NCBI GenBank assembly: GCA_000004985.1
Contig: GG738846.1
Direction: 5' to 3' (one strand)
Length of the DNA stretch: 64,000 nt
Source: Naegleria gruberi
Lineage: Eukaryota
Of this stretch, positions 1,424 through 48,532 are shown piece after piece; the stretch's first letter is position 1, and each line of letters starts with the position of its first letter. The translations under genes and the position numbers were made by a program. The notes under the pieces are model-generated. The model saw only the letters and a program-made list of their open reading frames with translations, did not search any database and had not been told where the DNA came from.

Positions 1424-4400
1424 ATGAATAGACTCCTCAGTACCTCTCACCAAAGCTCTGAGGCAGATTTAAATTTTGAAATCGGAACCCTCATTGATAA
1501 GGTGGCAACAGCACACTCCCGTTCTAAACAACGTAGTAATTCTGTAACAAAACCAAGGAAGATTAAATTGGCTGAGCCTGTGGAAGCTGCTATTGATAAA
1601 CAAGTAGAGGAGGATTTATTTACCTATCCATTCATATCGTATGTATTTAGTGATACATATTTTATTGGAATATTTATATTGATTTAATAGTAATGATCCA
1701 GCTAGTAATTTAGAAGATGATCAACTTCAGAGAAAATATCCAGTCACCAACTTGAATGCTGAAATAAGATTGAAAAAACAAAAGGAACTTGTAGAGAAAA
1801 TCAGTTTTTCTGAGCACAAATACCAATCCATCTTTGCTTCCTCCTTTCCCCTTAAACCTCTAATTCCATTTTTCAAGTATCTTGTCTCTCCAGTGAAGGG
1901 AAATTATCTTCCTGACCAACATAATATTGTCACAAAGTCTAAATTGCGAATATCATTACCGTACACAGTCGTTTTTGGAATTTCTGAAAGTCCAGTGTTG
2001 TACTATACAGATGTAGATGGTTATGTTGTAAGGGTTGATAATGTAGCCTTCAAGACGATAAAACAAAAACTAACTTATGGAACTACCTCAGATTCTGACG
2101 TGGCTGTTGTCATGAAAAGAGTAAGTATTACTGGAATTAGATAACTAATCTATTTAGTTGGTTCCTGGTGAAGTTACTACCAATGTTGCCTCTCTACTGA
2201 GTGTTAAGCAATTATTAACAATTTTGGATGCTCAAAATACTGGACTCTGTGTTTTCCAAAGATATGTAAAATCGAGTGGAAGCAAAGCATCAGTTGCCAG
2301 GATTATTTGGAATTCAACTAGACCTGTCTCTGGATATGTTCTTTCAAACAAAAAGACCACAACAGATCCATTTGAAAAAGAGGCAACAAATAGGCTATTA
2401 ACAAATACAGATAATGCAAATAATATTGATATTTTCCAATTGAAAGCAGCAGCTTTAGGAAGTATAGGAGTTCAAATGAACAATATTGTAAAATATTTGG
2501 AAAGTTTACCAAAACTTAAATGTAAATTCGAAACATTTGCTGCAGATTTTATCAGAGACGATGATGGGAGGTATTGGTTTATCCAAGCCAAAGCATTTAC
2601 AATTGAGGAAAAAAAGATCAAAAAACCAAGTTCGGAAGAGGAAATTCCAGAGGAAAGAAATATCAAAGCAAAATCATACTATCTCAAAAGTAAAGAGTGC
2701 AAAATGTGTCTCAATCTGTTCCCTCCCACTGATTTGAGTTATTCCATGACTCTAAAGATGATTTATGCTACTGAACAACACTTGAAGAGAAGAGCTGTAA
2801 AATTAGCTTGGTTTGATAGACCTGAATTTAAAGGAACATCAGAAACTTCAAGCTGGTACCAGGAGTTTAAGGTTTGCAAACCATGTTTTGACATGTACTT
2901 ACAAGAGCAAAAGCTTGCCAAAGTTGAGCTCCAGTTTGCAAAGGCAATTGGTATTCCAGTAACTAAGAAAATTAATGACGATGCTTCAATTTTGGAATCA
3001 TTACAGCATAGGTTGTCGAATCAAAAGAGGCTTAATTGCGATACAAAGGAAATGCCAAAAAGTTTATTAATGTACAGATTTATTGTTTACTTGAATGGTA
3101 TGTTGTTTCCCTATTTATTATTCATTTTTGTAATTTCAGAGGTCAGAAATGTTCCAGATAATTTATTAGCAGCTAAGAAAGTTCAACTTAAGGTAAAACT
3201 ATTTGATACTGAATTATGTGTTCCTTTGAAAATGGAAGATGTGGATCCAAAGAAGAAGATTGCAGTTGGAAAATTGAGGGTATTCTACTTTTTCATTAAG
3301 AATCAGACACAATTCAGAGTCTTTCTGAAGAACCAAAGAGACATCAAGGTTGATCTTTGTGTAAATGGAAATGAAGTAATTGGAAAGGCAGTTCTAAATT
3401 TGAAACAATTCGAGAGTGGGTTATTGGACAAGTTGGATTACATGGTCCTTTTTTCTGCTACTGGACTTAAACTTTGTTCCTTGAGAGCAACTATTGGATT
3501 TGTGCAAATGAGTAATAAGGACATTACAAATCTCAAATTGACAGAGTGCAATTCAGGTGTATATATTCCTCCAGCTGATTTTTATACCGCAGATCCTTTG
3601 CCAGACGAGTGGATGGAAATGATTCCAACCCTAAAAACCACAAGAGAGGGAGCAAGAGAGATTGATGAATCAAACAAGAGAGATAGACCACAATCAGCAA
3701 GAACTATGGTTCCAAAACTTGCCACATCCACAATTGAAAGAAGGCCATTCTCAGCCACTCTTCAGAAACGACCAACAACGCCTTCTCAAACTCTCACTAG
3801 AAGAGCAGCCATGAGTGCAACTCCAAGAAATACTTCTTCAACACCTTCCTACGCCAAATCTATCGGAAATTTGAAAAAGAGGCCAGCATCCCACAGTGGA
3901 CAAAGACAAGTTTATAATGGTTCTCAAGTGAGTGACTACTATGATTACACTTCATCAACCTTAACATCAGACCTCAATACCATAACATGGGATGAAAGAG
4001 ATACAAACACAAAGAAACCAACTGGAATTGATGCCTTCTTGGGTAATGTCACTTTTGGAACAGATAACACACCCGAAGTTTACAGGCCAGCCTCAGAGGC
4101 AAGAATGCATTTTGCTCATGATGAGCTTATTTGGGAATGGTCAATTAACCAGTTTACTGTTAAGGATCTCAAATCATCGGTTGACGAATGCTGGATATTA
4201 ACCATAGATATTTTTGGTGTGATGAAAAAGGAATACGAAAGTTTCCAAATTTTTAACGAAGGTCCACTAGTATTTGATATTGAAGATAAGGTTTTCTTGT
4301 CAGCCTCTCGAGACAACCTTAGCAGCTACTTTGACAAGGAAAGGATAATGAAAATAACCTTAAAACAAAAATATGTTAATAGAAATGAAATGGTTGCATT

Positions 4401-4710
4401 GTTTGATTTGAGGCAATTATTGAAAAGAGAGAATGCTCAAATCTTTTTGGAGGCTGCTATTACAGATGCTTCTCATGCAGAAGAGATTAGGTGTGGAATT
4501 GTTGGAGAGGATAGTGATCAAGAAAGTGATGATGAGGAGGAGAAATTAAGCAGAGATGAGATGAAGCTTGGTACGATTTCAACCTATTGCAGTTATACCA
4601 AGATGGCCAAGACGAATGATGTGGCAACTGAAAATGTTGAAGTCTTCCAAATTGAGGAGTATAGTATCACTTGCTTTAAAACTGTACCTGACTGGTTTGA
4701 GAAGAAATAG
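1424..4710 (+). CDS. Large protein (~1060 aa) with a possible divergent tubulin-tyrosine-ligase-like (ATP-grasp) segment; 3 exons: join(1424..1638,1691..2120,2158..4710)
   Basis: Three track ORFs in different frames are joined by GTATGT...TAG (52 nt) and GTAAGT...TAG (37 nt) introns with consistent phases. Motif CVFQRYV...KFETFAADFIRDDDGRYWFIQAKAF resembles the TTL C-terminal signature FELFGFDxxxDxxxxPWLLEVN. The functional call is weak. Confidence 0.55.
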
Positions 4711-15281: not shown

Positions 15282-18200
15282 TTACTTCCAAACCTTAAGT
15301 ATACCATCTCTAGAGCTTGTCAATAGTAATGGTTGGAAGTGGCCTTTAGATACACCAGAGACAATCTTGATATCAGTAATTGTATCCAAATGATGAGTTT
15401 GTACAGGTTGAGAGAATGTTCCTCCCCTTCTACTGGCACTTGTAGATGTCAGAATATCACCCTTATTGAATGGAACAGCTTCTTCTGAGTAAACTGTGTA
15501 CTTGTCTTCCTTTTTGGCAGAATAAATAAATGCTTGTTGCTGTTGTTGAGCTCCACTGACAACATAACTTTGCTCAATAGTGTTAGTATCCCAGAATCTG
15601 ATAATACCGTCACTACTTCCAGAATAGAATGAGCCATCAAATTCATTGACATATAATGCATTTACATCAAAAGTTGGTTCTTCTTGGAAGTGTTTTGTTC
15701 TGTCCTTCATAATTTTACGAATTTCTCCAATAGCAAATCTATCACTTACACCAGTCAAATTTGATGTTACTGTAGTGGCATTTGTAGTCATTGGATTGGT
15801 ATTTGGAGTAGTGTTATTACTCTTTTGCTTTCTAGAACTATCAGAACATCTGAATTTGAGTAAGGTAGATTGAGTTTCCAAATTCCACAAATCTACTTCT
15901 CTATTTTGTGATGCAATATATACAGAAGGTGCCATACTGGAGGTTTTTTGGAGTGGAGATGCTTTACAAATTCTATTGATGGCACTTTCAGTAATTCTAT
16001 TATTTGTTACACTTATTTGATATCTCAAATCCCACAAAGTTACATAACCTCTCTTTGTGGAGGATAAGATCCAAGGCTCATTCATATCACCACAACAAAT
16101 TTCAGAAATTGGTCCTTGTTCAAGTGATTGTTTTGATTTCCATGAGAATGCCTCTCTTTCACATCTTGGATCAATACCAACAATAATACCATTTTGATTA
16201 CCACACACCAAGAGTGGTTGTTGATGATTTTGGAACGGTCTGATAACATTAATAGAAGCCTCTTGAGTCTTGGCTGTTTGTACAAATTTGGCACCAGAAT
16301 CGCCAATAGTTATAGTATACATGGTTGTACCCAAATCAGCACTGAATACGTGAATCCAACCCTTATCTGTACATGCTGCAATCAATGGTGAAGAAACATT
16401 CAATATACCCACTGAATTAACTCTACCTCCTCCCTGAATGATTGTATAGGTCATTTTCGAGTTCATGGCAAAGTCTCTCTCAGTACTTGTCAAGTCCCAT
16501 AATCTAACAGTGCCATCATTACCACCTGTTACAAACCAGCACAAACTATCGTGAACAGATATTTCATTAATAGATCCCTTGTGCTCTGTAGATTGACCAA
16601 ATAAATTACCATTTGGTCTCCACTTGGCAATATTGGCTGATTTGAGAGGTGAAGTTACAGAGGAGAGGTTAGAGGTGGCGCCAACAGGATTACTTGTGGA
16701 TGGATTACCAGATGATTGATTTGTTTTGAGTGGAAGAGTTTCTTCATCTTTCTTCTTACTACTTGGTTGTTTACCTGTGGAATTAGTTGATGCAGATGAA
16801 TTACTTGCAGAAGGAATGGAAAAGAATGTATTCCATTCGTTATTATATTGTTTGGATTGTGCTGATTTGGATGCTGTTTGATTATTAACAATTGAGCTCG
16901 ATTGTAAAGTAATGTAAGGACTTTCTATTGGTGTGAAATGACTTGTAAGTGGTAAGTTCAATTTGATAATATTGCTCGAATTGGAGTTATTAGAATCCAT
17001 ATTTTCTCCTGTATTTTCCCAACTCTTGGATTGTATGGCCATGGCAACTTGTGAAAGATATGGTTTGATAATCTCTAATTTTTTCAAGTCCTCTTCTGAA
17101 ATGTTTGGTATTTTGGATGATATCAAAAGTGAGAAGGATTCAAATTTTTGTTGAGAATTCAAATCTTCCATTAAAATCTTGATAGACTTGTCAAAAATGT
17201 CTCTTTGAAGCGATTGTTTCAAACTTTCCAAAAGTGAATATTCATAAACTAGGAGAATATCGTGCTCTAAATGAGGTTTTAAAATTTCAATCAAGAAGCA
17301 ACTAGTATCTGCCAATCCCAAAGTCTTACTAGCAGCAGAAAAGAATGCAACACTATTATATCTTATCCAAGTATTTGGATGGTAAAGTAAAAATGAAACC
17401 TTCTTGGCAATATCTACAATTGTTGATTTTTCAAACATTTGCAACTCACACAAAGTTACCAATCCATTAAGAGCTTGGTCAATAACAAACTCTTGTACAT
17501 CGTACAATGCTTGCATAATACAAGGTAAAATAAATTCCTTCAATGAAGTTGGACCAACATATACAGAAATGCCAACAATTTGTTCAAAAAAGGCATGTCT
17601 CAGTCTCCATTGACGAGAGTTTAAGAATGTAATGACCATAGGTAGTACAAAATCGTTTGTCTTTCTCCTACCATAAAACATACAAAATGGTGTAATATTC
17701 TTTAAAAGTGCTACCTTCACAGGTGTACATTGATCCATAGAAAGTTCAAGAACAATCGAGGCAATTTCATCCTGTAATGAATTCAAATCAGTATCATAAG
17801 TTCCCTTTACCATAACTTGGGTAGTCATATTTTGTTTGATGATCTGACTCATTTCCAAAAATCTTCTTGCTTGATAAGCGAGTAATGGCAAATTTTCAGC
17901 AAAAGTGACACGAACCAAATCTGACTTGTCAGTTGAAATTATTCTCAGTGCTGGTAGAATGTAATCATTAAATAAATTGGACTCACTAGCTGAAAATGCT
18001 GTTATTTTTGCGAGAATATAAGTAAGAGTGTCTATAGCTTTTGATTTAACAAGTGGGGCCTGATCATTCAAAAGTGAACATGTGTATGGAATGAGTCTTT
18101 CCAATTTGGTATAGTTGGATGAAAAATCAGCTAACTTTTTCATTAAATCTAAACCTTGAACACGAACACTAACACTTTGAGCATTTCTTACACTGGAACA

Positions 18201-19742
18201 AAGTAGAGTGGCAATAATTTCAATTCCTTCATGAGAGTTGATTTGACTACTTTCAGATTTTTGAGTTAACTTTCTTCTTTCAACAAGCTTTTCAATGATA
18301 TTATTATTGGTGGATTTTTCTTGTTGCTTTGTACTTGTCAATCCAACATTGGTCTCTGAAAGATTCCTTTCTCCAAATGCTTGCGTATTTTGAATAAGGT
18401 CTAGCAAGGAATTCTTATGAACCATAGATCCACCACTACTACTACTACTTTCAGAATTTTGAGTGTTATTACTTGAAGAATGATTACTTGATAAAGTAAT
18501 TGTAGAGGATGTGTTGTTAGATAAGGTATTTTCTTGAGTTTCATTTTCAGAAATTTTAGAAATAATCATATCATACATATTCTCAATAGTTTGTATTCTC
18601 TTGTCACAATTCTTTTCTAACATTTGTATCATTACACTTTCATGAATAAATTTAAAATAATTTGGGAATATTCTTGGAGTGTACTTTTTAATGTACTCCT
18701 CTGCTGAAAATCTCTTATTAGGATCTAAATCTAACATATGTGATATCATTTCTCTTACATCCTTATCATCGATTCTTTCCATTAATTTTGAAAAGTGTTC
18801 AGTATCTCCCTTTCTATATGCAAGTAATTGTGAATAATCAAAGAGAGCTTCTCCATCAAGAAAGAGTTGTGCAATAACACATCCAACACTGAATATGTCC
18901 ATCTTTTCTGTTAATTCTTCACCATTATTAGGATTGACATTTGTTGAAGATTGAGTATTTTCTTCGATTACAGTAACACTTTGATCAACTCCATTAATGT
19001 CAACCATAATAAAAGATGAATCTCTTGCCAATCTATTACTTGAATTTGGTGCAAGTCCATTGTTATTATTTAAATAAATATTAGTGTTTGTGTTTGAAGA
19101 AGGACAAAAACGTTCAGGAGCCAACAAACAAATTCTTCTTCCCGATGTATCAAAATAATAGGAAAAGAATGATGGATCATCATCAGGTATTCTAGAAGGT
19201 TTAAAAGGAGCCAAATCAGTTAAAAAGACCCAATCCCACGCTGTTAATATAATATTATCAGCTTTTAAATCTCCATGATAAATTCCCAATTTGTGTATTT
19301 GTTTCAACCCTTCAAGTATTTGAAAAGCGATCCAACGTTTTCCAATAGAACTAAAAAACGGTCTAGTACTAATTCTATCAGCCAAATTACTATAACAAAA
19401 TTGTCTCACCAAATAACCAGCCTTGTCAGTTTCTACCATTCTATTATAACTTAAAACATTTGGTTGTGATCGGAGACTAAGTTTTTCATTGAGTAGTTTT
19501 AATTTTGCATGATGGGGTGCCAACGCCAGTGGTGGATCATCTTCCTTTTTCAAATATACTTTAACAACGACTGGCATACCCTCTTCAGTCCAACATTGCA
19601 CACTTTTTAATAATCTACCTCCTCCTAATGTGTGATCTTGAACCAATCCCTCGGCCAAATCCTGCAAGTGGAGTTCTTGAAGAGATCCACTCACGGCCAA
19701 TTGATTATTTCCCATTTTTTTAAATTTAATATTTATTTTCAA
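15282..19742 (-). CDS. VPS15: Vps15 (PI3-kinase regulatory subunit 4) protein kinase, 1486 aa, single exon
   Basis: N-myristoylation-type start MGNNQ, kinase-like domain (HGDLKADNIIL...DLAPF), central HEAT-like helical region, and C-terminal WD40 repeats (...LTSSRDGILKVWK). Confidence 0.85.
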   Translation of the reverse strand: MKINIKFKKMGNNQLAVSGSLQELHLQDLAEGLVQDHTLGGGRLLKSVQCWTEEGMPVVVKVYLKKEDDPPLALAPHHAKLKLLNEKLSLRSQPNVLSYNRMVETDKAGYLVRQFCYSNLADRISTRPFFSSIGKRWIAFQILEGLKQIHKLGIYHGDLKADNIILTAWDWVFLTDLAPFKPSRIPDDDPSFFSYYFDTSGRRICLLAPERFCPSSNTNTNIYLNNNNGLAPNSSNRLARDSSFIMVDINGVDQSVTVIEENTQSSTNVNPNNGEELTEKMDIFSVGCVIAQLFLDGEALFDYSQLLAYRKGDTEHFSKLMERIDDKDVREMISHMLDLDPNKRFSAEEYIKKYTPRIFPNYFKFIHESVMIQMLEKNCDKRIQTIENMYDMIISKISENETQENTLSNNTSSTITLSSNHSSSNNTQNSESSSSSGGSMVHKNSLLDLIQNTQAFGERNLSETNVGLTSTKQQEKSTNNNIIEKLVERRKLTQKSESSQINSHEGIEIIATLLCSSVRNAQSVSVRVQGLDLMKKLADFSSNYTKLERLIPYTCSLLNDQAPLVKSKAIDTLTYILAKITAFSASESNLFNDYILPALRIISTDKSDLVRVTFAENLPLLAYQARRFLEMSQIIKQNMTTQVMVKGTYDTDLNSLQDEIASIVLELSMDQCTPVKVALLKNITPFCMFYGRRKTNDFVLPMVITFLNSRQWRLRHAFFEQIVGISVYVGPTSLKEFILPCIMQALYDVQEFVIDQALNGLVTLCELQMFEKSTIVDIAKKVSFLLYHPNTWIRYNSVAFFSAASKTLGLADTSCFLIEILKPHLEHDILLVYEYSLLESLKQSLQRDIFDKSIKILMEDLNSQQKFESFSLLISSKIPNISEEDLKKLEIIKPYLSQVAMAIQSKSWENTGENMDSNNSNSSNIIKLNLPLTSHFTPIESPYITLQSSSIVNNQTASKSAQSKQYNNEWNTFFSIPSASNSSASTNSTGKQPSSKKKDEETLPLKTNQSSGNPSTSNPVGATSNLSSVTSPLKSANIAKWRPNGNLFGQSTEHKGSINEISVHDSLCWFVTGGNDGTVRLWDLTSTERDFAMNSKMTYTIIQGGGRVNSVGILNVSSPLIAACTDKGWIHVFSADLGTTMYTITIGDSGAKFVQTAKTQEASINVIRPFQNHQQPLLVCGNQNGIIVGIDPRCEREAFSWKSKQSLEQGPISEICCGDMNEPWILSSTKRGYVTLWDLRYQISVTNNRITESAINRICKASPLQKTSSMAPSVYIASQNREVDLWNLETQSTLLKFRCSDSSRKQKSNNTTPNTNPMTTNATTVTSNLTGVSDRFAIGEIRKIMKDRTKHFQEEPTFDVNALYVNEFDGSFYSGSSDGIIRFWDTNTIEQSYVVSGAQQQQQAFIYSAKKEDKYTVYSEEAVPFNKGDILTSTSASRRGGTFSQPVQTHHLDTITDIKIVSGVSKGHFQPLLLTSSRDGILKVWK

Positions 19743-23989: not shown

Positions 23990-25362
23990 ATGTCATCTAT
24001 TGTATCCGCTATTACTCAACATTCTAATCAATTGTTAATCCTCGGCTTGGGTGCTGCTTTGGGTTTTGCTGTCTCAAAGACTTGTTGCACTAAAAAGTGT
24101 ACAAGAGGTACTGGAGCTTGTAAGTCTGCCACCACTACTCCATCATCATCAACAACAACAACAACAACTCCATCAACTCCATCATCATCAAAGGGTCCAG
24201 TTGTTGATTACTCCAAGAAGACCAAGGAAGAAATCATTGCTGAATTCAAACAAGTTTTCACTGAATTAAAGCAATTTGTTTTGGAAGATATCAAGGCTAA
24301 CTATGAAGTTCCAGAAGAAAATATCCAATATGTTGAAAGAGTAGGTATTTATATTATTCTCACAGTGTTATTTATCATCACACACTTTACATTAAAATAA
24401 CTACAACATAATTTAAATATATTTAGGTACTTGAATATAACGTTCCTCATGGTAAATTGAATCGTGGATTGGCTGTTGTTGATACTTTGTTGATTTTGAA
24501 TAATTATCAAATTTCTCAAGAAGATTTCAAGTTGGCTAGTATTTTGGGTTGGTGTATTGAATTCCTCCAAGCATTCTTCTTGATTGCTGATGATATTATG
24601 GATGCTAGTGTTACTAGACGTGGTCAACCTTGTTGGTATAAATTGAATGATGTCAAGATGACTGCTTGTAATGATTACTTGATTGTTGAATCTCAAATTT
24701 ACATTATTTTGAAGAAGTATTTCAAAAATGATTTATATGTACCACTCGTTGATTTGTTCCATCAAGTCAGTTATATGACTGAATTGGGTCAATTGCACGA
24801 TTTGAGATCTCTCCCACCAAACGTTGATAAGAATTCTTCTGATGAAATTCCATTCCATACTTTCACTATTGAAACTTATTCATTGATTGTCAAGTACAAG
24901 ACTGCTTTCTACAGTTTCTACTTGCCATTGTACTGTGGTTTGATTTTGAGTGGTAAATTGGATGAAAATATTAGAAAGCAAACTTTGGATATTTCAATTG
25001 CTATGGGTGAATACTTCCAAATTCAAGATGATTATTTGGATTGTTATGGTGATCCAGAACACATTGGTAAGATTGGTAGAGATATTGAAGATTGTAAATG
25101 TTCATGGATGGTTGTTAATGCTTTAAAGTTGGCCAATGAAGAACAATTGACTGTCCTCAAGTCTAACTATGGTAAGGAAGAACCAGAAAAGGTTAAATTG
25201 GTTAAGGAATTGTATGCTCAATTGAATTTGGAACAATTGTACAAGGATTATGAAAAGTCTGCTATTGAATCTATGAATCAATTGATTGCCAAGGTTCCAG
25301 AAGTTATCAATAAGGATATTTACAAGACATTGTTGTCTAAGATTGCTAATAGAACCAAGTAA
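23990..25362 (+). CDS. Farnesyl diphosphate synthase with unusual N-terminal hydrophobic/Cys-rich/poly-Thr extension; 2 exons: join(23990..24340,24427..25362)
   Basis: FARM motif LIADDIMD and SARM motif FQIQDDYLDCYGDPEHIGKIGRDIEDCKCSW. Intron GTAGGT...TTTAG (86 nt). The junction reads ...IQYVERV|LEYNVPHGKLNRG, as in FPPS. The first ~75 aa are LLILGLGAALGFAVS, then CCTKKCTRGTGACK, then TTTPSSSTTTTTTPSTPSSS. Confidence 0.8.
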
Positions 25363-25437: not shown

Positions 25438-28400
25438 TTACACCTTATAACCAATTCTATTCTCCAACCACAAGTTTCTTGCCATTTCTGCAGATGGTCT
25501 TCTTTCATAATTCTTATCCAACATGATCATTACAAAATCAATAATGGCATTCACATCAATGGTTTGACCATTCACTATCACAGTATTATTATTACTTGGG
25601 GTAGCTAATAAGTTTTGACTACTTCCACTATTTGCACTGAGTGGCAAGTTACCAGCATTCAACGATTCCATAAAGGCCAAAGTCAATCTCTCTCTAATTT
25701 CCTTACCACCATTGAGGATAGAAATTCTTACAGTAGTTTGGAAATCTCTTGTTATCATGATATAAAATACACATCCCAATCCATAGATATCAGTTTTAGA
25801 TACATCTTTCACTTCACCAGCAAATAATTCTGGACTTTGGAACAATTCTGTACCAACAATACTTGTTTTTGTAATTACATTTTCAATATCTCCCTTTGCT
25901 AATCCAAAATCTGATAGAACAACATGATCTTGTGATTTTAAAAGGAAGTTTTCTGGTTTGATATCTCTGTGATAGACTTGTCTCTGATGAATATATTCAA
26001 TACTTGATAACATTTGTCGCATATAATTCAAAATTCTATTAATTGGTAAATTAGATTTCAAATTCAATAAATAAGATTGGAAATCACCCATTTCTAAAAA
26101 TGGCATTGTAAAACACCATTTTTCAAAATTACCAATATTAGTTTCAAATATTTCATAGACAGGTAAAATATTTTCATGATTCAATTTGGACATTTGAATA
26201 AATTCAACATTATTTCCCTCTTCTCTTGGTAAAATCTTCAAGGCAAGTATCTTTTTATCTTCACTCTGTAAATCACAAACTTTGAAAACACTTCCAAAAC
26301 CACCAAAACCAATCTTTTTCAATACTTCATATCTATTGATTAGAACATTCTTCTTGGTCTTTTTAACTTGATTTCCATTATTAGAAGTACTACTCTTCTT
26401 AATATTATTATACAATTTGACTAGATTTGAGATTTCTGTATTATCAGAGAGTGGTTTGATAAAGTAATTATAAATTAAATCTAGATTTGACTTTTCAAAT
26501 ATGAGTTTAAAGTATTCTTCAACATTTGGAATGGAGTTTTTGAGTTTTGGTAAAAGATTTGCATTAGAGAATAATCTAACATTGATAAAATCGGTCCACT
26601 TTTCATAAAATCTATTATGATTACCATTATAATTTGTAACTGACATTGGTAAAAAGTAAATATTAACAAATTTGGTATAGTCAATATTTGAAATTTCTTG
26701 TAAATAGTTTGCCATATACTCAAATATGGTAATCTTCATTTCAGTATCAAGTATTGTTGAAAATGATGCTAAACATAAACATTCCAAATAAATATTGGAA
26801 TTAAAATTATACTTTCTGATATATTTTAAAAATTCAAAAATATCCAACACTCTCTTCTTATGGAATGGTCTAAACATTTCAATTTCGGAAACCAATGGAT
26901 TGATACATTGTAATTTATCAAATTCTCCATTAAGTGTTGAATTAATCATACTTAATATAATGTTAATAGTTTCTTGATTATTTTCAGAGATGGAGAGCAT
27001 TTCTGTAAAGAGATTGTCATTATTACAAGACCAATAAATGATCAAGTAGAAGAATGTATAAATTTTCTTTCTTAATTCCATTGAATTGGTATATAATTGT
27101 TCACTCTTTGGTTTAGTTTCCATTTCTTTCAAATACTTTTTACAATCGGCCATTAATTGAATATCAGAGTTGAGTAAAATTGGACCAAATTGACAAAGTT
27201 GATAAAATAAATTAATAATAACTGGAGTACTCAACTCATTATTGACAATGATAGTATTTTCAAATAATCTACCAATTTGAACCAATAGTGGAATGTAATT
27301 CTTATCTTTCTGAATATTCTCCTTAATGAGAGGTATGGTAATTTTAATGAGAATAGAATTGATAAGATTAACATTAAATGTTTGGAAACATTTGGATTTG
27401 AGAATGTTTGAATATACATTGAATTTTTCAGTTTGTGAAATTTCAATTTCGAATAGGTTCTTTAAGAATGCTTCAAACTCTTCATAGGTCAGAATTTCAA
27501 ATAAAATATCAAATACAGAGACAGTGAGTGATTTCATCAAATTACCCTTCACAACAGCAACATTTGGTAAGTTGGTTGCATTGAGGTTTAGAATGAGTAG
27601 TAATTTAGAAACGAGTGAATTAAATTGTTCTTTAAATTCAATAATTTCTTTGGTTTGCTTTGTTTGCTTCTTCTTTTCCTGTTGGGAACTATTCTTCTTT
27701 TTCAACATGATCATAACAAGTGAGAATGATTGAATGGCATGATAAATAGTCTTGTAGTGGATTTCATTATTAGAAATTGAAGTAGAGTTATTCTTTGAAA
27801 TCATTGAGAGAGTATTTAACGATTCTTGTAATCTATCATTGAGATAGATTAAAACAGATTGATAAACTTTTTCATTAATTGGAATCTTGTAAATGATTTG
27901 TTCAAATAATAGTTCAGAATTTTTAAAATATTGACCAATGAAATAGAATAGAGATTCCAAAGTCTTCAATCGAATATGTGGATCATCAAAGTAAAATTCC
28001 AAAATTGAAAACAATGAAATGAATAACCCATTTGCATGTAAAACACATTCCTTATAGGTAATCTTCTTTTTTACAACTTCAATCAATTCAAGTATTGAAA
28101 TATTCTTGATAATGAATTGCTTCCACAGGAAGAATATTTGTAAATAGTTGTTATGCGGTATTGTTGAAATGAAGAATGTAAAACTCATTTTGATATTATT
28201 CTTTTCAGGTTTTGATTTCTTCAATTCAGGTAAAATACTTAAAATATTAGCTCTCGATGATAAATTACCATATAAAGTATTGGATGAATTCTTTTGTGGC
28301 TTGTATAGTTCAATAAGTTTCAATTTTTCAAAATTCATAATTGATTCATTATCTGTAAACTTGTAAAAACCAACAAGTGCTGGTTCATCTTCAATTTCAT

Positions 28401-30534
28401 ACTTATTTCCCCTGCTCGAATTGTTAATGTTATAAATATAGAGATATAGATATAAATTATCAAAACTCTCAACATTGGAAGCATCAATGTGAAAAGGTTC
28501 AAAGAATTTTGGATTTGTTTTTTTACAGAACAAGTAACTTGTATAGTGATAGGGTCCATCAATATTATCCATCAATTTACCAGATCTAATCTTGATTGGA
28601 TCATTTTCATTATTTCTATAAAGTGGAATAAATCTTCCCTCCTTTGTTTGATTATTCTTCACTTCAAATAATCGAATAACTACGAGTGGATTCTTGGATT
28701 TTATCATTGAAGATGAAAATGTAGCTCTATCCATTGATGGATAAATATCACATCTATTTTCTAAGAATGAATAATTGGTTCTAATTTCATTCTTTGTATT
28801 GATTGAAAACCAATTAATAGGTTTAGCTGTTGTAAGTCTTTGAAATTGTGGCTGATCATTTAAAATTATATCATAATCACCCTTATAAAATACAAAATTA
28901 ACATTTAACTGATCTTTCAATTGTTTACATTCAGTTCCAATTGTTTTGTAAGAGTAGAGTGAAGTTGGAGCACTCTGTACACTAGTTGTTGATAATTCAT
29001 TAATGAGAGATGTTAAAGTTGTGGAAGAACCTGCATTTGGTGAGCTAAGGGCTGATGAGGTAGAACCTGTTGTTATTGTTGTACTGGTGGTGGAACCTGA
29101 TGTGAATGGTGATAGTGTTGTTGATGCATTTGTTGTTGATATTGTTGTTGATGGAGCACTGCTGCCCATTAGAAGATTACCAAGTGAAGAGGCATTACTG
29201 GTGGAGGATGAATTTAAACCGAGAAGTTCACTCGAAGAGGATGGGTTATTTCCACCCATGATAGATCCCTTTCTTCCAATTGTATTGTTATTATGAGATG
29301 TTGTTGTTGTATTGTTATTACTATTTGAATTGTCACTAGTTGAAGAAGTATTCGAATCTTCATCTTCTAACAGATAGGTTGGTTTAACACTTAAACGTTT
29401 ACCAACATGTTGAGCAGCAATAACAGCATGTAACATTGTAAATTTCTTTTCATGAGTCTTTTCATAAAATTCACAAGATTTTGTTATGGATTGACCATTT
29501 GATAATTCTCTAATAGTATCATGATCGAATGGAATTGCACAAACAGCAAGAGGTCTCCTCAAGTGTGTAATATCTGAATCATCTTTTGCAGGATTGTAAT
29601 TATACATGAAATTTTGACTATTATTATCAATATTTGATAGTAAACTAGTAGAATTATTATTAGAAATTGATGTCTTTGTAATATTATACTTTTTAAAGGC
29701 TCTACCTATTAGAAATATATCATCCTTTAATAAATAGGATCCAGTAACATCTCTAAATAAACAAATTCTGTTTCTACCACTGTCAGATGAAATTGCTACA
29801 GTTTCCGATATAAATCTTGCTTCATTTAAACTATAAAGTGTAAAATCAATTTCAATATTTTCCTCACTCTGAGCAGAAAATATATGAAAATCAAAAACAA
29901 CCATCAATTGAAAAGTATCATTAATAGAAATGTTCAATTTCTTTGTACTTTCTTCCACATTATCCAAATCTGAATTTCCATCATTGACATTTAATGATGA
30001 TGATCCACTGCTATTGTTATTGGATGAAGAATTACCACTACCAATACTACCATTACTTGTATTGAGTGATGATGATGCTGATGCTGACGAGGTTGAATTT
30101 GATGAAGATCCAGCACCATTAGTATTCATCTTTTTAGATAGGGTATTCAAAACTTTATCTTTAAAGGAGAGACTCTTCTTCTTTTCATTGGTAGTACCAG
30201 CCCCCATTGGACTAGAAGAGGAGGGTGATGTTTGTTGTTGTTGTTGTTGTTGATGTTTGTTTCTCCTTCTTCTATAATTGAGTGTTACAAGTTTTAAATG
30301 TTGTTTATCATTGATAAATTCTTCAAGGAATGATCGACCATGATTAGTTTCATTCTCAATTTCATTGATGCTATCAATGATGGAAATATAGGGAGAAGTA
30401 GAATTATTTTCATTATTATTATTACTTGAATTGCTGAAACTTTGTCTCAGTGTGTTGTTATTGAAGGAGGAACCACCACTGCCACCAGTGTAGGATGGAA
30501 GTAAATGTGGTGAGGTTCCTGAGATCTTTCTCAT
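25438..30534 (-). CDS. Giant multidomain protein (1698 aa) with C-terminal Ser/Thr protein kinase domain and long helical/low-complexity N-terminal region
   Basis: Kinase motifs GFGGFGSVFKV, ALKIL, HRDIKPENFLL, DFGLAK, SPE and DIYGLGCVFY lie in the last ~300 aa. Upstream are Asn/Ser/Thr/Gln homopolymers and a long helical repeat region. Single exon. Confidence 0.75.
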   Translation of the reverse strand: MRKISGTSPHLLPSYTGGSGGSSFNNNTLRQSFSNSSNNNNENNSTSPYISIIDSINEIENETNHGRSFLEEFINDKQHLKLVTLNYRRRRNKHQQQQQQQTSPSSSSPMGAGTTNEKKKSLSFKDKVLNTLSKKMNTNGAGSSSNSTSSASASSSLNTSNGSIGSGNSSSNNNSSGSSSLNVNDGNSDLDNVEESTKKLNISINDTFQLMVVFDFHIFSAQSEENIEIDFTLYSLNEARFISETVAISSDSGRNRICLFRDVTGSYLLKDDIFLIGRAFKKYNITKTSISNNNSTSLLSNIDNNSQNFMYNYNPAKDDSDITHLRRPLAVCAIPFDHDTIRELSNGQSITKSCEFYEKTHEKKFTMLHAVIAAQHVGKRLSVKPTYLLEDEDSNTSSTSDNSNSNNNTTTTSHNNNTIGRKGSIMGGNNPSSSSELLGLNSSSTSNASSLGNLLMGSSAPSTTISTTNASTTLSPFTSGSTTSTTITTGSTSSALSSPNAGSSTTLTSLINELSTTSVQSAPTSLYSYKTIGTECKQLKDQLNVNFVFYKGDYDIILNDQPQFQRLTTAKPINWFSINTKNEIRTNYSFLENRCDIYPSMDRATFSSSMIKSKNPLVVIRLFEVKNNQTKEGRFIPLYRNNENDPIKIRSGKLMDNIDGPYHYTSYLFCKKTNPKFFEPFHIDASNVESFDNLYLYLYIYNINNSSRGNKYEIEDEPALVGFYKFTDNESIMNFEKLKLIELYKPQKNSSNTLYGNLSSRANILSILPELKKSKPEKNNIKMSFTFFISTIPHNNYLQIFFLWKQFIIKNISILELIEVVKKKITYKECVLHANGLFISLFSILEFYFDDPHIRLKTLESLFYFIGQYFKNSELLFEQIIYKIPINEKVYQSVLIYLNDRLQESLNTLSMISKNNSTSISNNEIHYKTIYHAIQSFSLVMIMLKKKNSSQQEKKKQTKQTKEIIEFKEQFNSLVSKLLLILNLNATNLPNVAVVKGNLMKSLTVSVFDILFEILTYEEFEAFLKNLFEIEISQTEKFNVYSNILKSKCFQTFNVNLINSILIKITIPLIKENIQKDKNYIPLLVQIGRLFENTIIVNNELSTPVIINLFYQLCQFGPILLNSDIQLMADCKKYLKEMETKPKSEQLYTNSMELRKKIYTFFYLIIYWSCNNDNLFTEMLSISENNQETINIILSMINSTLNGEFDKLQCINPLVSEIEMFRPFHKKRVLDIFEFLKYIRKYNFNSNIYLECLCLASFSTILDTEMKITIFEYMANYLQEISNIDYTKFVNIYFLPMSVTNYNGNHNRFYEKWTDFINVRLFSNANLLPKLKNSIPNVEEYFKLIFEKSNLDLIYNYFIKPLSDNTEISNLVKLYNNIKKSSTSNNGNQVKKTKKNVLINRYEVLKKIGFGGFGSVFKVCDLQSEDKKILALKILPREEGNNVEFIQMSKLNHENILPVYEIFETNIGNFEKWCFTMPFLEMGDFQSYLLNLKSNLPINRILNYMRQMLSSIEYIHQRQVYHRDIKPENFLLKSQDHVVLSDFGLAKGDIENVITKTSIVGTELFQSPELFAGEVKDVSKTDIYGLGCVFYIMITRDFQTTVRISILNGGKEIRERLTLAFMESLNAGNLPLSANSGSSQNLLATPSNNNTVIVNGQTIDVNAIIDFVMIMLDKNYERRPSAEMARNLWLENRIGYKV

Positions 30535-46384: not shown

Positions 46385-48532
46385 CTAAACATTAATGTGC
46401 TCCAGTAAATTACAGTCATAGTTGAACTGTTTTGTAGAGTTACCATTGTTGATTGTTAGGTGAATACTAGAGTCCACGCATGAAATATCAATATCATACC
46501 CTTCTTGGTGTATCGAGTTATTGCTTGATATTATTGTTTGCCTAATATTAAGAGATAAGGATTCAAACTCTTCCTTTTCATCTTCGTTCAATTTACATTT
46601 TGTGATATTGATAATTCTCTTTGGATTGGATTTAGATCTTAGTATTTTGATTTCCTTAACGAACAAGCTCATGAACTGTATCAGACTAGACATTGTAGGA
46701 ACAATGGTTGGAAGGTATGCATTATGATTATACTTCTTGACAACATTTACAATGTGACATTCAATCAATTTGAATAGATTATTCTCCACCTCATCATACC
46801 CCTTGCTAAGTACAAAGGCAGGAGGTGTAATGCTGATATTATTGATTGTAAAGTCTTTTGGATGAAACTTGATATTGACTCCAAGCTTTTTGGATTCGTA
46901 TGGGAAACTGAAATGCAATGTGGAGTGTTTTCTATCTACAGTAAAAGGTACAAACTTTGTCTTGAATAGGTTCAACAAGTTTGGATGAGAAATGAGTAAA
47001 TCTTGTGCAGAAATTGTAAATCTCTGTGTGGATCTTCTCTTTCTAAACTTGATTTCATTAGATGACTTTTCAGATGAAATGATAATACTTGAAGGCTTGA
47101 CTTCCCTAGTTGTTGTGGTGGTTGTTGGGATAACTCTATCTGATTTGATAGTTTGTGGTTGGACAATAATTTCTGTCTTTTTCTTTTCCATAATTTTCTT
47201 TTCGCGTTGTTGAGCCACTTCTGATTGCAGATTTTGAAGCAAGTATTCATAGTGTTGAATGTATTGATCAACATATTTGATTTGATCATCAAGTTTGAGG
47301 ATATCCTTATTCAGTAAATCCTGTTGAACGTTTTGTAATTCTGATTTGATTTTCAATTTTTCAATAGTGGCTCCAGTCTTTGCAGTTTGGATTGAATAAC
47401 GAACATTGTTCTGAATATCTAAATTCTTTGGTCTAGTCATGACACTTCTGATAATCTTTGGTTCATTATATTTGAAAGCATCTTCCTTATCTAAAATTTC
47501 CTTCTCCATTACCTCAATCTTTTTTCTAGTTTGTGTAACAACTTTTTGTAACGATTCATTAGATATCTTTGCTGTAGTGTATTTGGAAATGATCTCTTCA
47601 CTTGGCAAATTAATATTCAAGCTCTTTCTACTTTGTGGGATGATTGACTTTCTGTCAGTAATAGTTGTGAGGAATCTAATCGACAAATGTGACCAAAAAT
47701 CAGAAAGAGTGTACTTTGCATTCTCATCAACTTCATCTGCATCCATAAGAATACTATTAGAAAGGTTCTTGAAAATTGAGAAATAGTCTGGCATTACAAT
47801 GTCAGCATTCGATGTCATCAAAATACTGTTATTCTTGGTAGTAGGAACACTGGTGATACTATTAGCTGCAAAGGTGGATGATGCTGGTACTATTGCAAGT
47901 AAAGAATCATTGATTTGAGAATTGTTATTCGAAATTGGTTGAGAGATTGATCTATCCATTAATGAAAAATTAACATCACCATCCTCGTCATCGTCATCAT
48001 ATCCAAATAAGAAGGAGGCATCTGGTATTGCTGGAGCAGGAGTTGGATCATATTCTTCATGGTGCGTGGAGCTTACGGTTTGGGAAGAGGTCATTTGTAA
48101 CAAGTTGAAAGAGGGTTTGTGACTTGAAGGTTGTTTAGAGTTTTGGCCTCCATTAGAGGATGAGACAATAAGAGAGCTAGCAGTACTTGTGGATGGTTGA
48201 GATTTCTTCGTGGAATCGTCAATAATGGAGACATTTCCATTGATGATAGTGGTAAATTCCATTGTTTGATCTTCATAAACCATTCCATTATCATTTACAT
48301 AGTCAGTAAAATCCATTGTTACATTTTCATCATCACCATCAAATAAATTCTTGTTAAGCGATTTTTTTCTAAATTGTGTTGGACTTTTTGCAGGTTCAAA
48401 GACTTGCACTTCTGGATTTTTTGTTGAGAAGGATACACGTCTTATTCTCTTCTTGTCCTGCTTTATTGGAGGTGAGGAAAGATGAATGGAGGATGCTGTA
48501 AAGGTCTTGCGTGGGTTGCCCTTTCTTTTCAT
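46385..48532 (-). CDS. KNL1/Spc105/Spc7-like kinetochore scaffold protein, 715 aa
   Basis: N-terminal PP1-docking RRVSF motif (KRIRRVSFSTKNPEVQVF, compare human KNL1 RRVSFADTIKVF), MELT-like motifs (VTMDFTDYV, QTMEFTTII), and C-terminal coiled coils. Confidence 0.45.
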   Translation of the reverse strand: MKRKGNPRKTFTASSIHLSSPPIKQDKKRIRRVSFSTKNPEVQVFEPAKSPTQFRKKSLNKNLFDGDDENVTMDFTDYVNDNGMVYEDQTMEFTTIINGNVSIIDDSTKKSQPSTSTASSLIVSSSNGGQNSKQPSSHKPSFNLLQMTSSQTVSSTHHEEYDPTPAPAIPDASFLFGYDDDDEDGDVNFSLMDRSISQPISNNNSQINDSLLAIVPASSTFAANSITSVPTTKNNSILMTSNADIVMPDYFSIFKNLSNSILMDADEVDENAKYTLSDFWSHLSIRFLTTITDRKSIIPQSRKSLNINLPSEEIISKYTTAKISNESLQKVVTQTRKKIEVMEKEILDKEDAFKYNEPKIIRSVMTRPKNLDIQNNVRYSIQTAKTGATIEKLKIKSELQNVQQDLLNKDILKLDDQIKYVDQYIQHYEYLLQNLQSEVAQQREKKIMEKKKTEIIVQPQTIKSDRVIPTTTTTTREVKPSSIIISSEKSSNEIKFRKRRSTQRFTISAQDLLISHPNLLNLFKTKFVPFTVDRKHSTLHFSFPYESKKLGVNIKFHPKDFTINNISITPPAFVLSKGYDEVENNLFKLIECHIVNVVKKYNHNAYLPTIVPTMSSLIQFMSLFVKEIKILRSKSNPKRIINITKCKLNEDEKEEFESLSLNIRQTIISSNNSIHQEGYDIDISCVDSSIHLTINNGNSTKQFNYDCNLLEHINV

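What the first reader, a model, noticed from the sequence alone, without database searches (positions are those of the whole stretch)
25438..30534. 1698-aa single-exon protein: C-terminal Ser/Thr kinase fused to a huge helical and low-complexity body
A canonical eukaryotic protein-kinase domain occupies only the last ~300 aa. Upstream are ~1400 aa with Asn/Ser/Thr/Gln homopolymers (QQQQQQQ, NNNSSGSSS, TSTTITTGSTSS) and a long alpha-helical repeat region. One conserved-looking block (ICLFRDVTGSYLLKDDIFLIGRAFKKYN...KFTMLHAVIAAQHVGKRL) could be a C2/DHR-like or regulatory module. I do not recognise this combination as a standard kinase family.
Basis: partly seen in the sequence, partly recalled or inferred. 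Interest (0 to 1): 0.5.

Follow-up and report, generated by a model that had tools for sequence, protein, structure and literature searches.

The report
DOCK-like scaffold fused to a kinase
This is a real 1,698-residue gene of the amoeba Naegleria gruberi that joins an apparently active Ser/Thr kinase to a long body that looks like a very diverged DOCK-type (Rho-GEF family) scaffold without its GEF domain; I found no description of this architecture, public annotation holds only a kinase fragment, and the DOCK link rests on moderate evidence.

Summary
Window 25438-30534 (-) is one uninterrupted 1698-codon ORF with a canonical protein-kinase domain at aa 1400-1698, Asn/Ser/Thr/Gln low-complexity tracts, two beta-rich blocks and a roughly 560-aa helical region.

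The organism is Naegleria gruberi. Its public annotation holds only a 198-aa kinase fragment of this gene.

The 1,400-aa body is conserved (52-79% identity) in three other, unnamed and presumably Naegleria-related sequence sets. In two of them an intron lies inside the kinase G-loop region, so body and kinase belong to one transcript there. An exhaustive HMMER search of 1.84 billion proteins found no other relative of aa 530-1396.

Three lines point to a DOCK-A/B-type scaffold:
- A low-confidence AlphaFold model of aa 530-1396 has DOCK5 as its top hit in Foldseek (E 8.5e-6).

There is no DHR-2 (GEF) domain; the kinase sits where it would be. My best reading is a membrane- or cortex-targeted scaffold kinase derived from a DOCK gene (about 0.65). 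It is a new variant of known kinds, of moderate interest.

The parts
25438..30534 (-). Complete CDS, 1698 codons plus stop, no intron in this genome
   Evidence: The 198-aa public N. gruberi fragment P0002 maps to aa 1398-1595 (window 25750-26343) at 100% identity.
29950..30534 (-). aa 1-195: N-terminal region, mostly Ser/Asn/Gln low complexity; no SH3 or other domain detected
   Evidence: No orthologue sequence covers it, so its conservation is unknown.
Beta-rich, followed by two helices, with an internal low-complexity loop at aa 283-315. DOCK_N-like.
   Evidence: Pfam DOCK_N PF16172 is the best hit, E 2.4e-4, 20.7 bits (cut-off 27), aa 211-252 on profile positions 141-184, once the loop is removed. 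DOCK5 223-364 hits profile positions 138-234 of the same family. The reversed sequence and 9 shuffles give no DOCK_N hit, best E 0.12. Smith-Waterman against DOCK5 223-420 scores 53, p = 8e-4. The VIAAQ/VIAAK segment gives p = 0.04. Strands are seen in the model.
28954..29349 (-). aa 396-527: Ser/Thr/Asn low-complexity linker
   Evidence: only 35% identity to the orthologue, against 67-79% in the flanking blocks.
28105..28953 (-). aa 528-810: block 2. A highly conserved lead-in (aa 528-590) followed by a beta-rich module in the position of a DOCK DHR-1 C2 domain.
   Evidence: 79% and 67% identity to L001. Strands in both models. hhalign and a DHR-1 HMM built from DOCK1/2/5/8 both pair RCDIY with RNDIY and YHYTSYLFCKKTNPKFFEPFHI with EYKSVVYYQVKQPRWxETVKV, but not significantly (E 0.44; P 0.01-0.03, shuffles 0.08). 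No Pfam DOCK-C2 hit.
26434..28104 (-). aa 811-1367: all-helical solenoid with one low-complexity insert (aa 941-975). DOCK ARM/TPR-like by fold search.
26338..26433 (-). aa 1368-1399: poorly conserved basic/low-complexity linker
25441..26337 (-). aa 1400-1698: eukaryotic protein-kinase domain with all catalytic motifs and a low-complexity insert at aa 1622-1654
   Evidence: Pfam Pkinase E 4e-41. Motifs: GFGGFGSV 1409-1416, Lys1433 (ALKIL), Glu1444, HRDIKPEN 1522-1529, DFG 1542-1544, SPE 1567-1569, DIYGLG 1582-1587, Arg1678/1679. 75-79% identity to orthologues.

Best explanation
This is one genuine Naegleria gruberi gene for a large scaffold kinase.

Shown:
- The ORF is real and conserved.
- In the two orthologue contigs that cover the junction, the exon encoding the body runs into the kinase G-loop, so body and kinase are one polypeptide.
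- The kinase keeps every catalytic motif of an active, activation-loop-regulated (RD) Ser/Thr kinase.
- The body consists of two conserved beta-rich modules and a ~560-aa alpha-solenoid, separated by fast-evolving low-complexity linkers.

Inferred, with moderate support:
- The body is a very diverged DOCK-A/B-type scaffold, in the order DOCK_N-like module, DHR-1-position beta module, ARM/TPR solenoid.
- It has lost the N-terminal SH3/ELMO-binding part.
- The GEF domain (DHR-2) has been replaced by the protein-kinase domain at about the ARM/DHR-2 boundary.

Inferred from what these modules do in DOCK proteins, not tested:
- The beta modules would bring the protein to membranes or the cell cortex.
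- The solenoid would bind partners or restrain the kinase.
- The output would be phosphorylation of local substrates instead of Rac/Cdc42 nucleotide exchange.
For: Gene and fusion:
- ORF of 1698 codons.
- Orthologues L001 and L003 have GT..AG introns just after or within the G-loop (SVFK|V and GFG|S). The spliced products are uninterrupted.
- L003 shares the downstream polyprenyl-synthase neighbour with the window.

Active kinase:
- Pkinase E 4e-41, all motifs present, 75-79% conserved.

DOCK origin:
- Pfam-wide scan of block 1 gives DOCK_N as the best family, E 2.4e-4. Ten reversed or shuffled controls give nothing better than E 0.12.
- A targeted alignment to the real DOCK5 sequence lines up E-x-E...LY...FISE, F-x-D...L...I-x-L and LRRP in the same order, p = 8e-4.
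- From the DHR-1-like start (aa ~594) to the end of the solenoid (~1367) is ~773 aa. In DOCK5, from the DHR-1 start (449) to the last residue I read (1142) plus about 75 aa to DHR-2 gives a similar length; that last boundary is from my own knowledge of DOCK2.
- Naegleria encodes Dock and Zizimin proteins (PMC3620097), so a parental gene is available.
Against: - Both AlphaFold models are low confidence (mean pLDDT 41.6 and 35.6, with an alignment of only 2 sequences). The tool itself warns that matches from such models can be meaningless.
- The model of the N-terminal half (aa 196-930) did not recover DOCK: best E 0.13, and the DOCK8 DHR-1 ranked only 23-24 at E 1.1.
- The DOCK_N hit is one 42-residue stretch below Pfam's gathering score. 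It appears only after I removed the low-complexity loop, and not with the loop in place or in a longer construct.
- No Pfam DOCK-C2 or TPR_DOCK hit appears for any construct or orthologue.
- phmmer of DOCK5 against the protein, and hhalign of the family profiles, are not significant.
- An unbiased phmmer of block 1 against the PDB does not list DOCK5.
- Exhaustive phmmer of aa 530-1396 finds no DOCK protein.
- Membrane targeting, partners and substrates are pure inference.
Confidence: 0.65

Rival explanations
1. The body is a lineage-specific orphan scaffold of Naegleria and close relatives (beta modules plus a generic alpha-solenoid) with no common ancestry with DOCK. The DOCK signals would be chance or generic fold resemblance picked up from poor models. 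It would still be a real scaffold kinase.
Confidence: 0.27
2. The long ORF is an annotation or assembly artefact: two neighbouring genes (an unknown protein and a small kinase) read through, as the 198-aa public kinase model might suggest.
For: The public N. gruberi record holds only a 198-aa partial kinase (P0002). No public protein matches the body.
Against: There is no stop or frame break over 5.1 kb in a 30% G+C genome. In two independent related assemblies the body exon itself encodes RYEILKKIGKGGFG(SVFK), and the rest of the kinase follows after a GT..AG intron, giving uninterrupted proteins. P0002 begins and ends inside the kinase domain (aa 1398-1595), so it is a domain-only partial model and not a gene boundary.
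Confidence: 0.03
3. The kinase domain is catalytically dead or decaying (a pseudokinase) and the protein acts only as a scaffold.
For: The spacing between the beta3 Lys (1433) and the alphaC Glu (1444) is unusually short, 11 residues against about 18-19 in CDK2 or PKA (own knowledge). There is a low-complexity insert in the C-lobe.
Against: All catalytic residues are present (G-loop, Lys, Glu, HRD, Asn, DFG, SPE, Arg). The kinase is one of the two best-conserved parts of the protein (75-79% identity).
Confidence: 0.05

Closest known systems
DOCK-A/B subfamily Rho-GEFs (DOCK1/DOCK180, DOCK2, DOCK5)
   Different: No DHR-2 GEF domain, which is the feature that defines the family; a protein-kinase domain sits in its place. 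No N-terminal SH3/ELMO-binding region. Sequence similarity is below every family cut-off. Long low-complexity inserts. Known only from N. gruberi and three unnamed, presumably Naegleria-related, assemblies.
Class III PI3K Vps34 and other PI3Ks (C2, helical domain, then a C-terminal kinase)
   Same: Analogy of layout only: a membrane-binding beta-sandwich, a helical scaffold and a C-terminal phosphotransferase in one chain.
Solenoid-containing ePKs such as Vps15 (encoded 6 kb away in this window) and LRRK2/ROCO kinases
   Same: A protein kinase fused to a large alpha-solenoid that serves as a scaffold or regulator.
   Different: Vps15 has the kinase at the N-terminus followed by HEAT and WD40 repeats. 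ROCO kinases carry ROC-COR GTPase modules. Neither has DOCK_N or C2-like modules, and neither matches the body.
Kinase-domain relatives: bacterial PknB-type STKs, CDKs, MARK/CaMK
   Same: Best solved-structure matches are S. aureus PknB-type (4eqm, 84 bits), CDK2 and MARK3. The best non-orthologous database hits are ~35% identical STKs, mostly from metagenomes.
   Different: No family is clearly closest (scores 70-84 bits for several groups). The domain therefore belongs to no named ePK family on this evidence; no phylogeny was computed.

Membership tests
DOCK (CZH) family of Rho-GEFs | DHR-2 catalytic GEF domain (Pfam DHR-2 lobes A, B and C) | tested here: not met
   No DHR-2 family in Pfam scans of the full protein, of sub-blocks or of orthologues, even at E <= 10. 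The solenoid is followed, after a 32-aa linker, by the kinase domain, which leaves no room for lobes B and C.
DOCK (CZH) family of Rho-GEFs | DHR-1 C2 domain (Pfam DOCK-C2 PF14429) | tested here: inconclusive
   A beta-rich conserved block lies at the expected position. hhalign and a DOCK1/2/5/8 HMM align the expected motifs, but at P 0.01-0.4. There is no Pfam DOCK-C2 hit for five constructs, while the DOCK5 control scores E 5e-61. The DOCK8 DHR-1 ranks only 23-24 in Foldseek.
DOCK-A/B subfamily | DOCK_N region (Pfam PF16172) upstream of DHR-1 | tested here: inconclusive
   It is the best Pfam hit of block 1, E 2.4e-4, 20.7 bits, but below the gathering score of 27 and covering only profile positions 141-184 of 387. 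Controls are clean. Targeted Smith-Waterman against DOCK5 gives p = 8e-4. It is not found when the low-complexity loop is left in.
DOCK-A/B subfamily | ARM/TPR solenoid between DHR-1 and DHR-2 (Pfam TPR_DOCK PF23554) | tested here: inconclusive
DOCK-A/B subfamily | N-terminal SH3 domain and helical ELMO-binding region | tested here: not met
   aa 1-195 are mostly low complexity and give no SH3 or other Pfam hit.
Eukaryotic protein kinase (ePK) superfamily | Pkinase fold above Pfam's cut-off | tested here: met
   PF00069, E 4e-41, 141.5 bits (cut-off 31.7), aa 1402-1686; 2418 solved kinase chains matched.
Eukaryotic protein kinase (ePK) superfamily | Catalytic motifs of an active kinase (GxGxxG, VAIK Lys, alphaC Glu, HRD, DFG, APE) | tested here: met
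   GFGGFG, K1433, E1444, HRDIKPEN, DFG and SPE are all present and invariant in the orthologues. Enzyme activity itself cannot be tested with these tools.
A named ePK group or family (CMGC, CAMK, AGC, NEK and so on) | Clear closest relationship to one group | tested here: inconclusive
   The best PDB scores are spread over PknB-type, CDK, MARK and GRK (69-84 bits). Non-orthologous database hits are <= 35% identical. No phylogeny was computed.

The most novel reading that the evidence does not exclude
A 'DOCK-kinase': in Naegleria gruberi and its closest known relatives a DOCK180-type gene kept its DOCK_N, DHR-1-like and ARM scaffold but exchanged the GEF domain (DHR-2) for an active Ser/Thr kinase. 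A targeting platform normally used to activate Rac at membranes would then deliver phosphorylation instead. I know of no DOCK-family protein with a kinase output, and two literature searches combining DOCK with Naegleria turned up none.
Probability: 0.6. Interest if true: 0.6.

Novelty: new variant of a known kind. Interest (0 to 1): 0.5.

Why it matters
If the DOCK origin holds, this is a natural domain swap. It would show that the DOCK N-terminal scaffold (membrane-targeting beta modules plus ARM solenoid) is a reusable localisation platform that works independently of GEF activity, and it would give a handle on what that poorly understood scaffold does by itself.

It also matters in two practical ways:
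- The N. gruberi gene is under-annotated: 198 of 1698 residues are in the public protein set. Kinome and domain-architecture surveys of Naegleria therefore miss it.
- The family seems restricted to Naegleria-like amoebae. If the relatives seen here turn out to include pathogenic species, which was not established, a lineage-specific active kinase would be worth knowing about.

If the DOCK link fails, it is one more lineage-specific scaffold kinase of a protist and of modest interest.

Tried and rejected
- My initial guess of a dictyostelid origin (AT-rich, homopolymer tracts) was wrong. The kinase search returned a 100%-identical N. gruberi fragment.
- Pfam on the whole protein and on untrimmed sub-blocks found only Pkinase.
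- A word-indexed search of the body returned only P0001.
- A word-indexed search of block 1 returned nothing.
- An exhaustive phmmer search of aa 530-1396 returned only P0001.
- Profile or phmmer searches against PDB sequences gave no DOCK hit, only chance hits.
- hhalign of the Naegleria profiles against DOCK profiles was not significant in local mode and uninformative in global mode.
- phmmer of DOCK5 against the protein with filters off was not significant.
- Segment-wise Smith-Waterman tests of the solenoid against the DOCK5 TPR region gave p = 0.33, 0.05 and 0.95.
- Pfam scans of five trimmed versions of block 2 and three solenoid pieces gave no DOCK-C2 or TPR_DOCK hit.
- The second AlphaFold model (aa 196-930) was poor and its Foldseek search uninformative.
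- The afdb50 fold library was not available.
- Two metagenome scans found no orthologue.
- The window protein and P0002 are not in the gene-position index.
- Considered and rejected: a read-through of two genes, because the orthologue introns tie body and kinase together; and a PI3K-like protein, because the kinase is an ePK and no PI3K appears among the listed fold matches.

Full report
**1. The observation**

The window contains one ORF on the minus strand, 25438..30534, of 1698 codons starting with ATG. Stop codons make up 6.3% of all codons across the six frames of this 30% G+C window, so an open frame of this length cannot arise by chance (ln P about -111).

Pfam finds a protein-kinase domain at aa 1402-1686 (E 4e-41) and no other significant family. 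Low-entropy tracts lie at aa 11-69, 125-202, 280-315, 381-527, 941-975, 1368-1401 and 1622-1654.

**2. Organism and annotation**

I first took the sequence for a dictyostelid. A search with the kinase domain corrected this. Its top hit is a 198-aa 'predicted protein, partial [Naegleria gruberi]', 100% identical, on a 1.0-Mb contig (P0002). P0002 maps to aa 1398-1595, which lies inside the kinase domain.

The full 1698-aa product is not in the gene-position index, and nothing in the protein collections matches the body from N. gruberi itself. The public protein set therefore appears to hold a domain-only model, with about 1,500 residues unannotated.

The neighbours are ordinary eukaryotic genes: Vps15, a Dicer-like protein, a BK-type channel, a DEAD helicase, an exosome RNase PH subunit, a longin SNARE, farnesyl-diphosphate synthase and Utp12.

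**3. Relatives, and proof of the fusion**

- The body (aa 530-1396) has exactly one relative in a word-indexed search of 5.8 billion clusters.
- It has the same single relative in an exhaustive HMMER search of 1.84 billion representatives. That relative is P0001, from a 7.6-kb Logan contig (L001).
- The kinase search added P0003 (ENA, L002) and P0004 (Logan, six runs, L003-L007), which are 69-71% identical.
- L003 carries a 604-aa body fragment upstream of the kinase. It also has a polyprenyl synthase downstream on the opposite strand, as in the window.

In L003 and L001 the exon that encodes the body continues into kinase subdomain I (RYEILKKIGKGGFG...). It is then interrupted by a GT..AG intron at slightly different positions: GFG|S, about 54 nt, and SVFK|V, about 205 nt. 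Splicing gives uninterrupted proteins. Body and kinase are therefore one gene product there, and N. gruberi simply lacks this intron.

Identity between N. gruberi and L001, by region:

| Region | Identity |
|---|---|
| Lead-in to block 2 (aa 528-590) | 79% |
| Beta block 2 (aa 591-810) | 67% |
| Solenoid, first part (aa 811-940) | 69% |
| Solenoid, second part (aa 976-1367) | 57% |
| Kinase (aa 1400-1698) | 75% |
| Long low-complexity linker (aa 396-527) | 35% |

The structured blocks are thus under constraint and the homopolymer tracts are not. Two scans of JGI metagenome contigs found no further orthologue.

**4. The kinase**

All motifs of an active RD-type Ser/Thr kinase are present, and they are invariant among the four sequences: GFGGFG, Lys1433, Glu1444, HRDIKPEN, DFG, a Thr/Ser-rich activation loop ending in SPE, DIYGLG, and the subdomain XI Arg.

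- The closest solved structures are spread over PknB-type, CDK, MARK and GRK kinases, at 69-84 bits.
- The closest non-orthologous database hits are only ~35% identical.

I therefore cannot place it in a named family; I computed no tree. The Lys-to-Glu spacing (11 residues) is shorter than usual; this comparison rests on my own knowledge.

**5. The body**

Neither the word-indexed search of block 1 nor the exhaustive search of aa 530-1396 links the body to any known family. Pfam on untrimmed blocks is empty.

Both AlphaFold runs could use only a two-sequence alignment and are low confidence, with mean pLDDT 41.6 for aa 530-1396 and 35.6 for aa 196-930. They agree on secondary structure:

- strands in aa ~208-335, followed by two helices;
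- strands in aa ~545-730;
- helices only from ~785 to ~1380.

By eye, block 2 resembled the DOCK DHR-1 C2 domain and block 1 resembled the region upstream of it in DOCK180-type proteins. I treated this as a lead. To test it I read real DOCK1, DOCK2, DOCK5 and DOCK8 sequences out of PDB alignments.

**6. Tests of the DOCK lead**

*For:*

- (a) The model of aa 530-1396, searched with Foldseek against the PDB, has DOCK5 as its only hit with E <= 1e-3 (8xm7_B, E 8.5e-6, 902 columns). Apart from a second DOCK5 entry at rank 2, the remaining hits are generic solenoids at E >= 3e-3.
- (c) On the non-overlapping block 1, with the internal low-complexity loop (aa 283-315) removed, a scan of all 24,736 Pfam families gives DOCK_N as the best hit. 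It scores E 2.4e-4 for aa 211-252 on profile positions 141-184, and the DOCK5 control hits positions 138-234 of the same profile. The reversed sequence and nine shuffles give nothing better than E 0.12 and no DOCK_N hit.
- (d) Smith-Waterman alignment of block 1 to DOCK5 223-420 lines up the E-x-E..LY..FISE, F-x-D..L..I-x-L and LRRP motifs in order. The score is 53 and p = 8e-4 from 20,000 shuffles. None of 135 windows from other ORFs of this window reaches that score.
- (e) The VIAAQ/VIAAK segment and the VKGNLMKSL/IKGAALKYL segment follow in the right order, at p = 0.04-0.05.
- (f) Naegleria is reported to encode both Dock and Zizimin proteins (PMC3620097).

*Against:*

- The models are poor.
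- The N-terminal-half model does not recover DOCK.
- No construct hits Pfam DOCK-C2 or TPR_DOCK.
- The DOCK_N hit is short, sub-threshold, and depends on trimming.
- hhalign, phmmer and a small DHR-1 HMM are not significant.
- An unbiased phmmer search of block 1 against the PDB does not list DOCK.

*Weighing:* three signals from two non-overlapping regions and three different methods name the same family in the correct order. I put common ancestry with DOCK-A/B scaffolds at about 0.65-0.75.

**7. What it is not**

The feature that defines DOCK proteins, the DHR-2 GEF domain, is absent. No Pfam DHR-2 lobe is found, and the solenoid is followed directly by the kinase. The SH3/ELMO-binding N-terminus is absent too. 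The protein must therefore not be filed as a DOCK GEF. At most it is a DOCK-derived scaffold with a different output domain.

**8. Mechanism (inferred)**

- By analogy with DOCK proteins, the beta-sandwich modules would bring the protein to membranes or the cortex. In DOCKs, DHR-1 binds phosphoinositides; this is established knowledge of the family.
- The solenoid would hold partners or restrain the catalytic domain.
- The kinase would be activated by activation-loop phosphorylation and would phosphorylate local substrates.

None of this was testable here. What is shown is the gene, the fusion, the conservation pattern and the intact catalytic motifs.

**9. Verdict**

This is a real, conserved, under-annotated gene that appears restricted to N. 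gruberi and a few close relatives, and its architecture is undescribed as far as I could find. The kinase is a member of the ePK superfamily. The body is most likely a diverged DOCK-type scaffold, which makes this a new variant of known kinds rather than something categorically new. Interest is moderate (0.5), and would be higher if a confident structure or a deep-profile search confirms the DHR-2-to-kinase swap.

Noticed in passing
window 25750-26343 (-): The only public protein matching this gene is a 198-aa 'predicted protein, partial [Naegleria gruberi]', which covers just aa 1398-1595 of the kinase domain. The other ~1,500 residues of the ORF appear unannotated in the public protein sets searched.
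   Followed up: yes
L003 ~1783-1834; L001 ~4466-4671; L001 just upstream of 164: The orthologues have GT..AG introns in the kinase G-loop region at two slightly different positions (GFG|S and SVFK|V), whereas N. gruberi has none. In L001 the frame also closes 3 codons before the conserved KFTMLHAV, which suggests another intron there that N. gruberi lacks.
   Followed up: partly
window 15282-19742 (-): A 1486-aa ORF with an N-terminal Pkinase domain, a VPS15-like helical domain and WD40 repeats, i.e. a Vps15 orthologue. It is a second solenoid-bearing kinase only ~6 kb from the gene studied, and is unrelated to it.
   Followed up: partly
window 52639-56946 (-): A 1435-aa single ORF with a full Dicer architecture: helicase, Dicer dimerisation domain, PAZ, two RNase III domains, and a weak dsRBD hit below Pfam's cut-off.
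   Followed up: no
window 23990-24400 and 24457-25362 (+): The farnesyl-diphosphate (polyprenyl) synthase appears to be split by a short intron. Its first exon encodes a hydrophobic stretch (LLILGLGAALGFAV) and a Ser/Thr-rich linker, which suggests a membrane-anchored or targeted form. The same gene lies next to the kinase gene in L003-L006 (synteny).
   Followed up: no
window 2158-4710 (+) and 46385-48532 (-): Two long ORFs (850 and 715 aa) with no Pfam family at E <= 0.001; possibly further lineage-specific proteins.
   Followed up: no
L001 5756-7466 and L002 1263-2973: In these two related contigs the kinase gene is followed by two ORFs of ~362 and 200 aa with no Pfam hit on record, instead of the polyprenyl synthase. 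Gene order downstream therefore differs between the relatives.
   Followed up: no
window 26182-26244 (-), aa 1431-1451: Only 11 residues separate the beta3 lysine from the putative alphaC glutamate, which implies a shortened alphaB/alphaC region in the kinase N-lobe. It is conserved in all orthologues.
   Followed up: no
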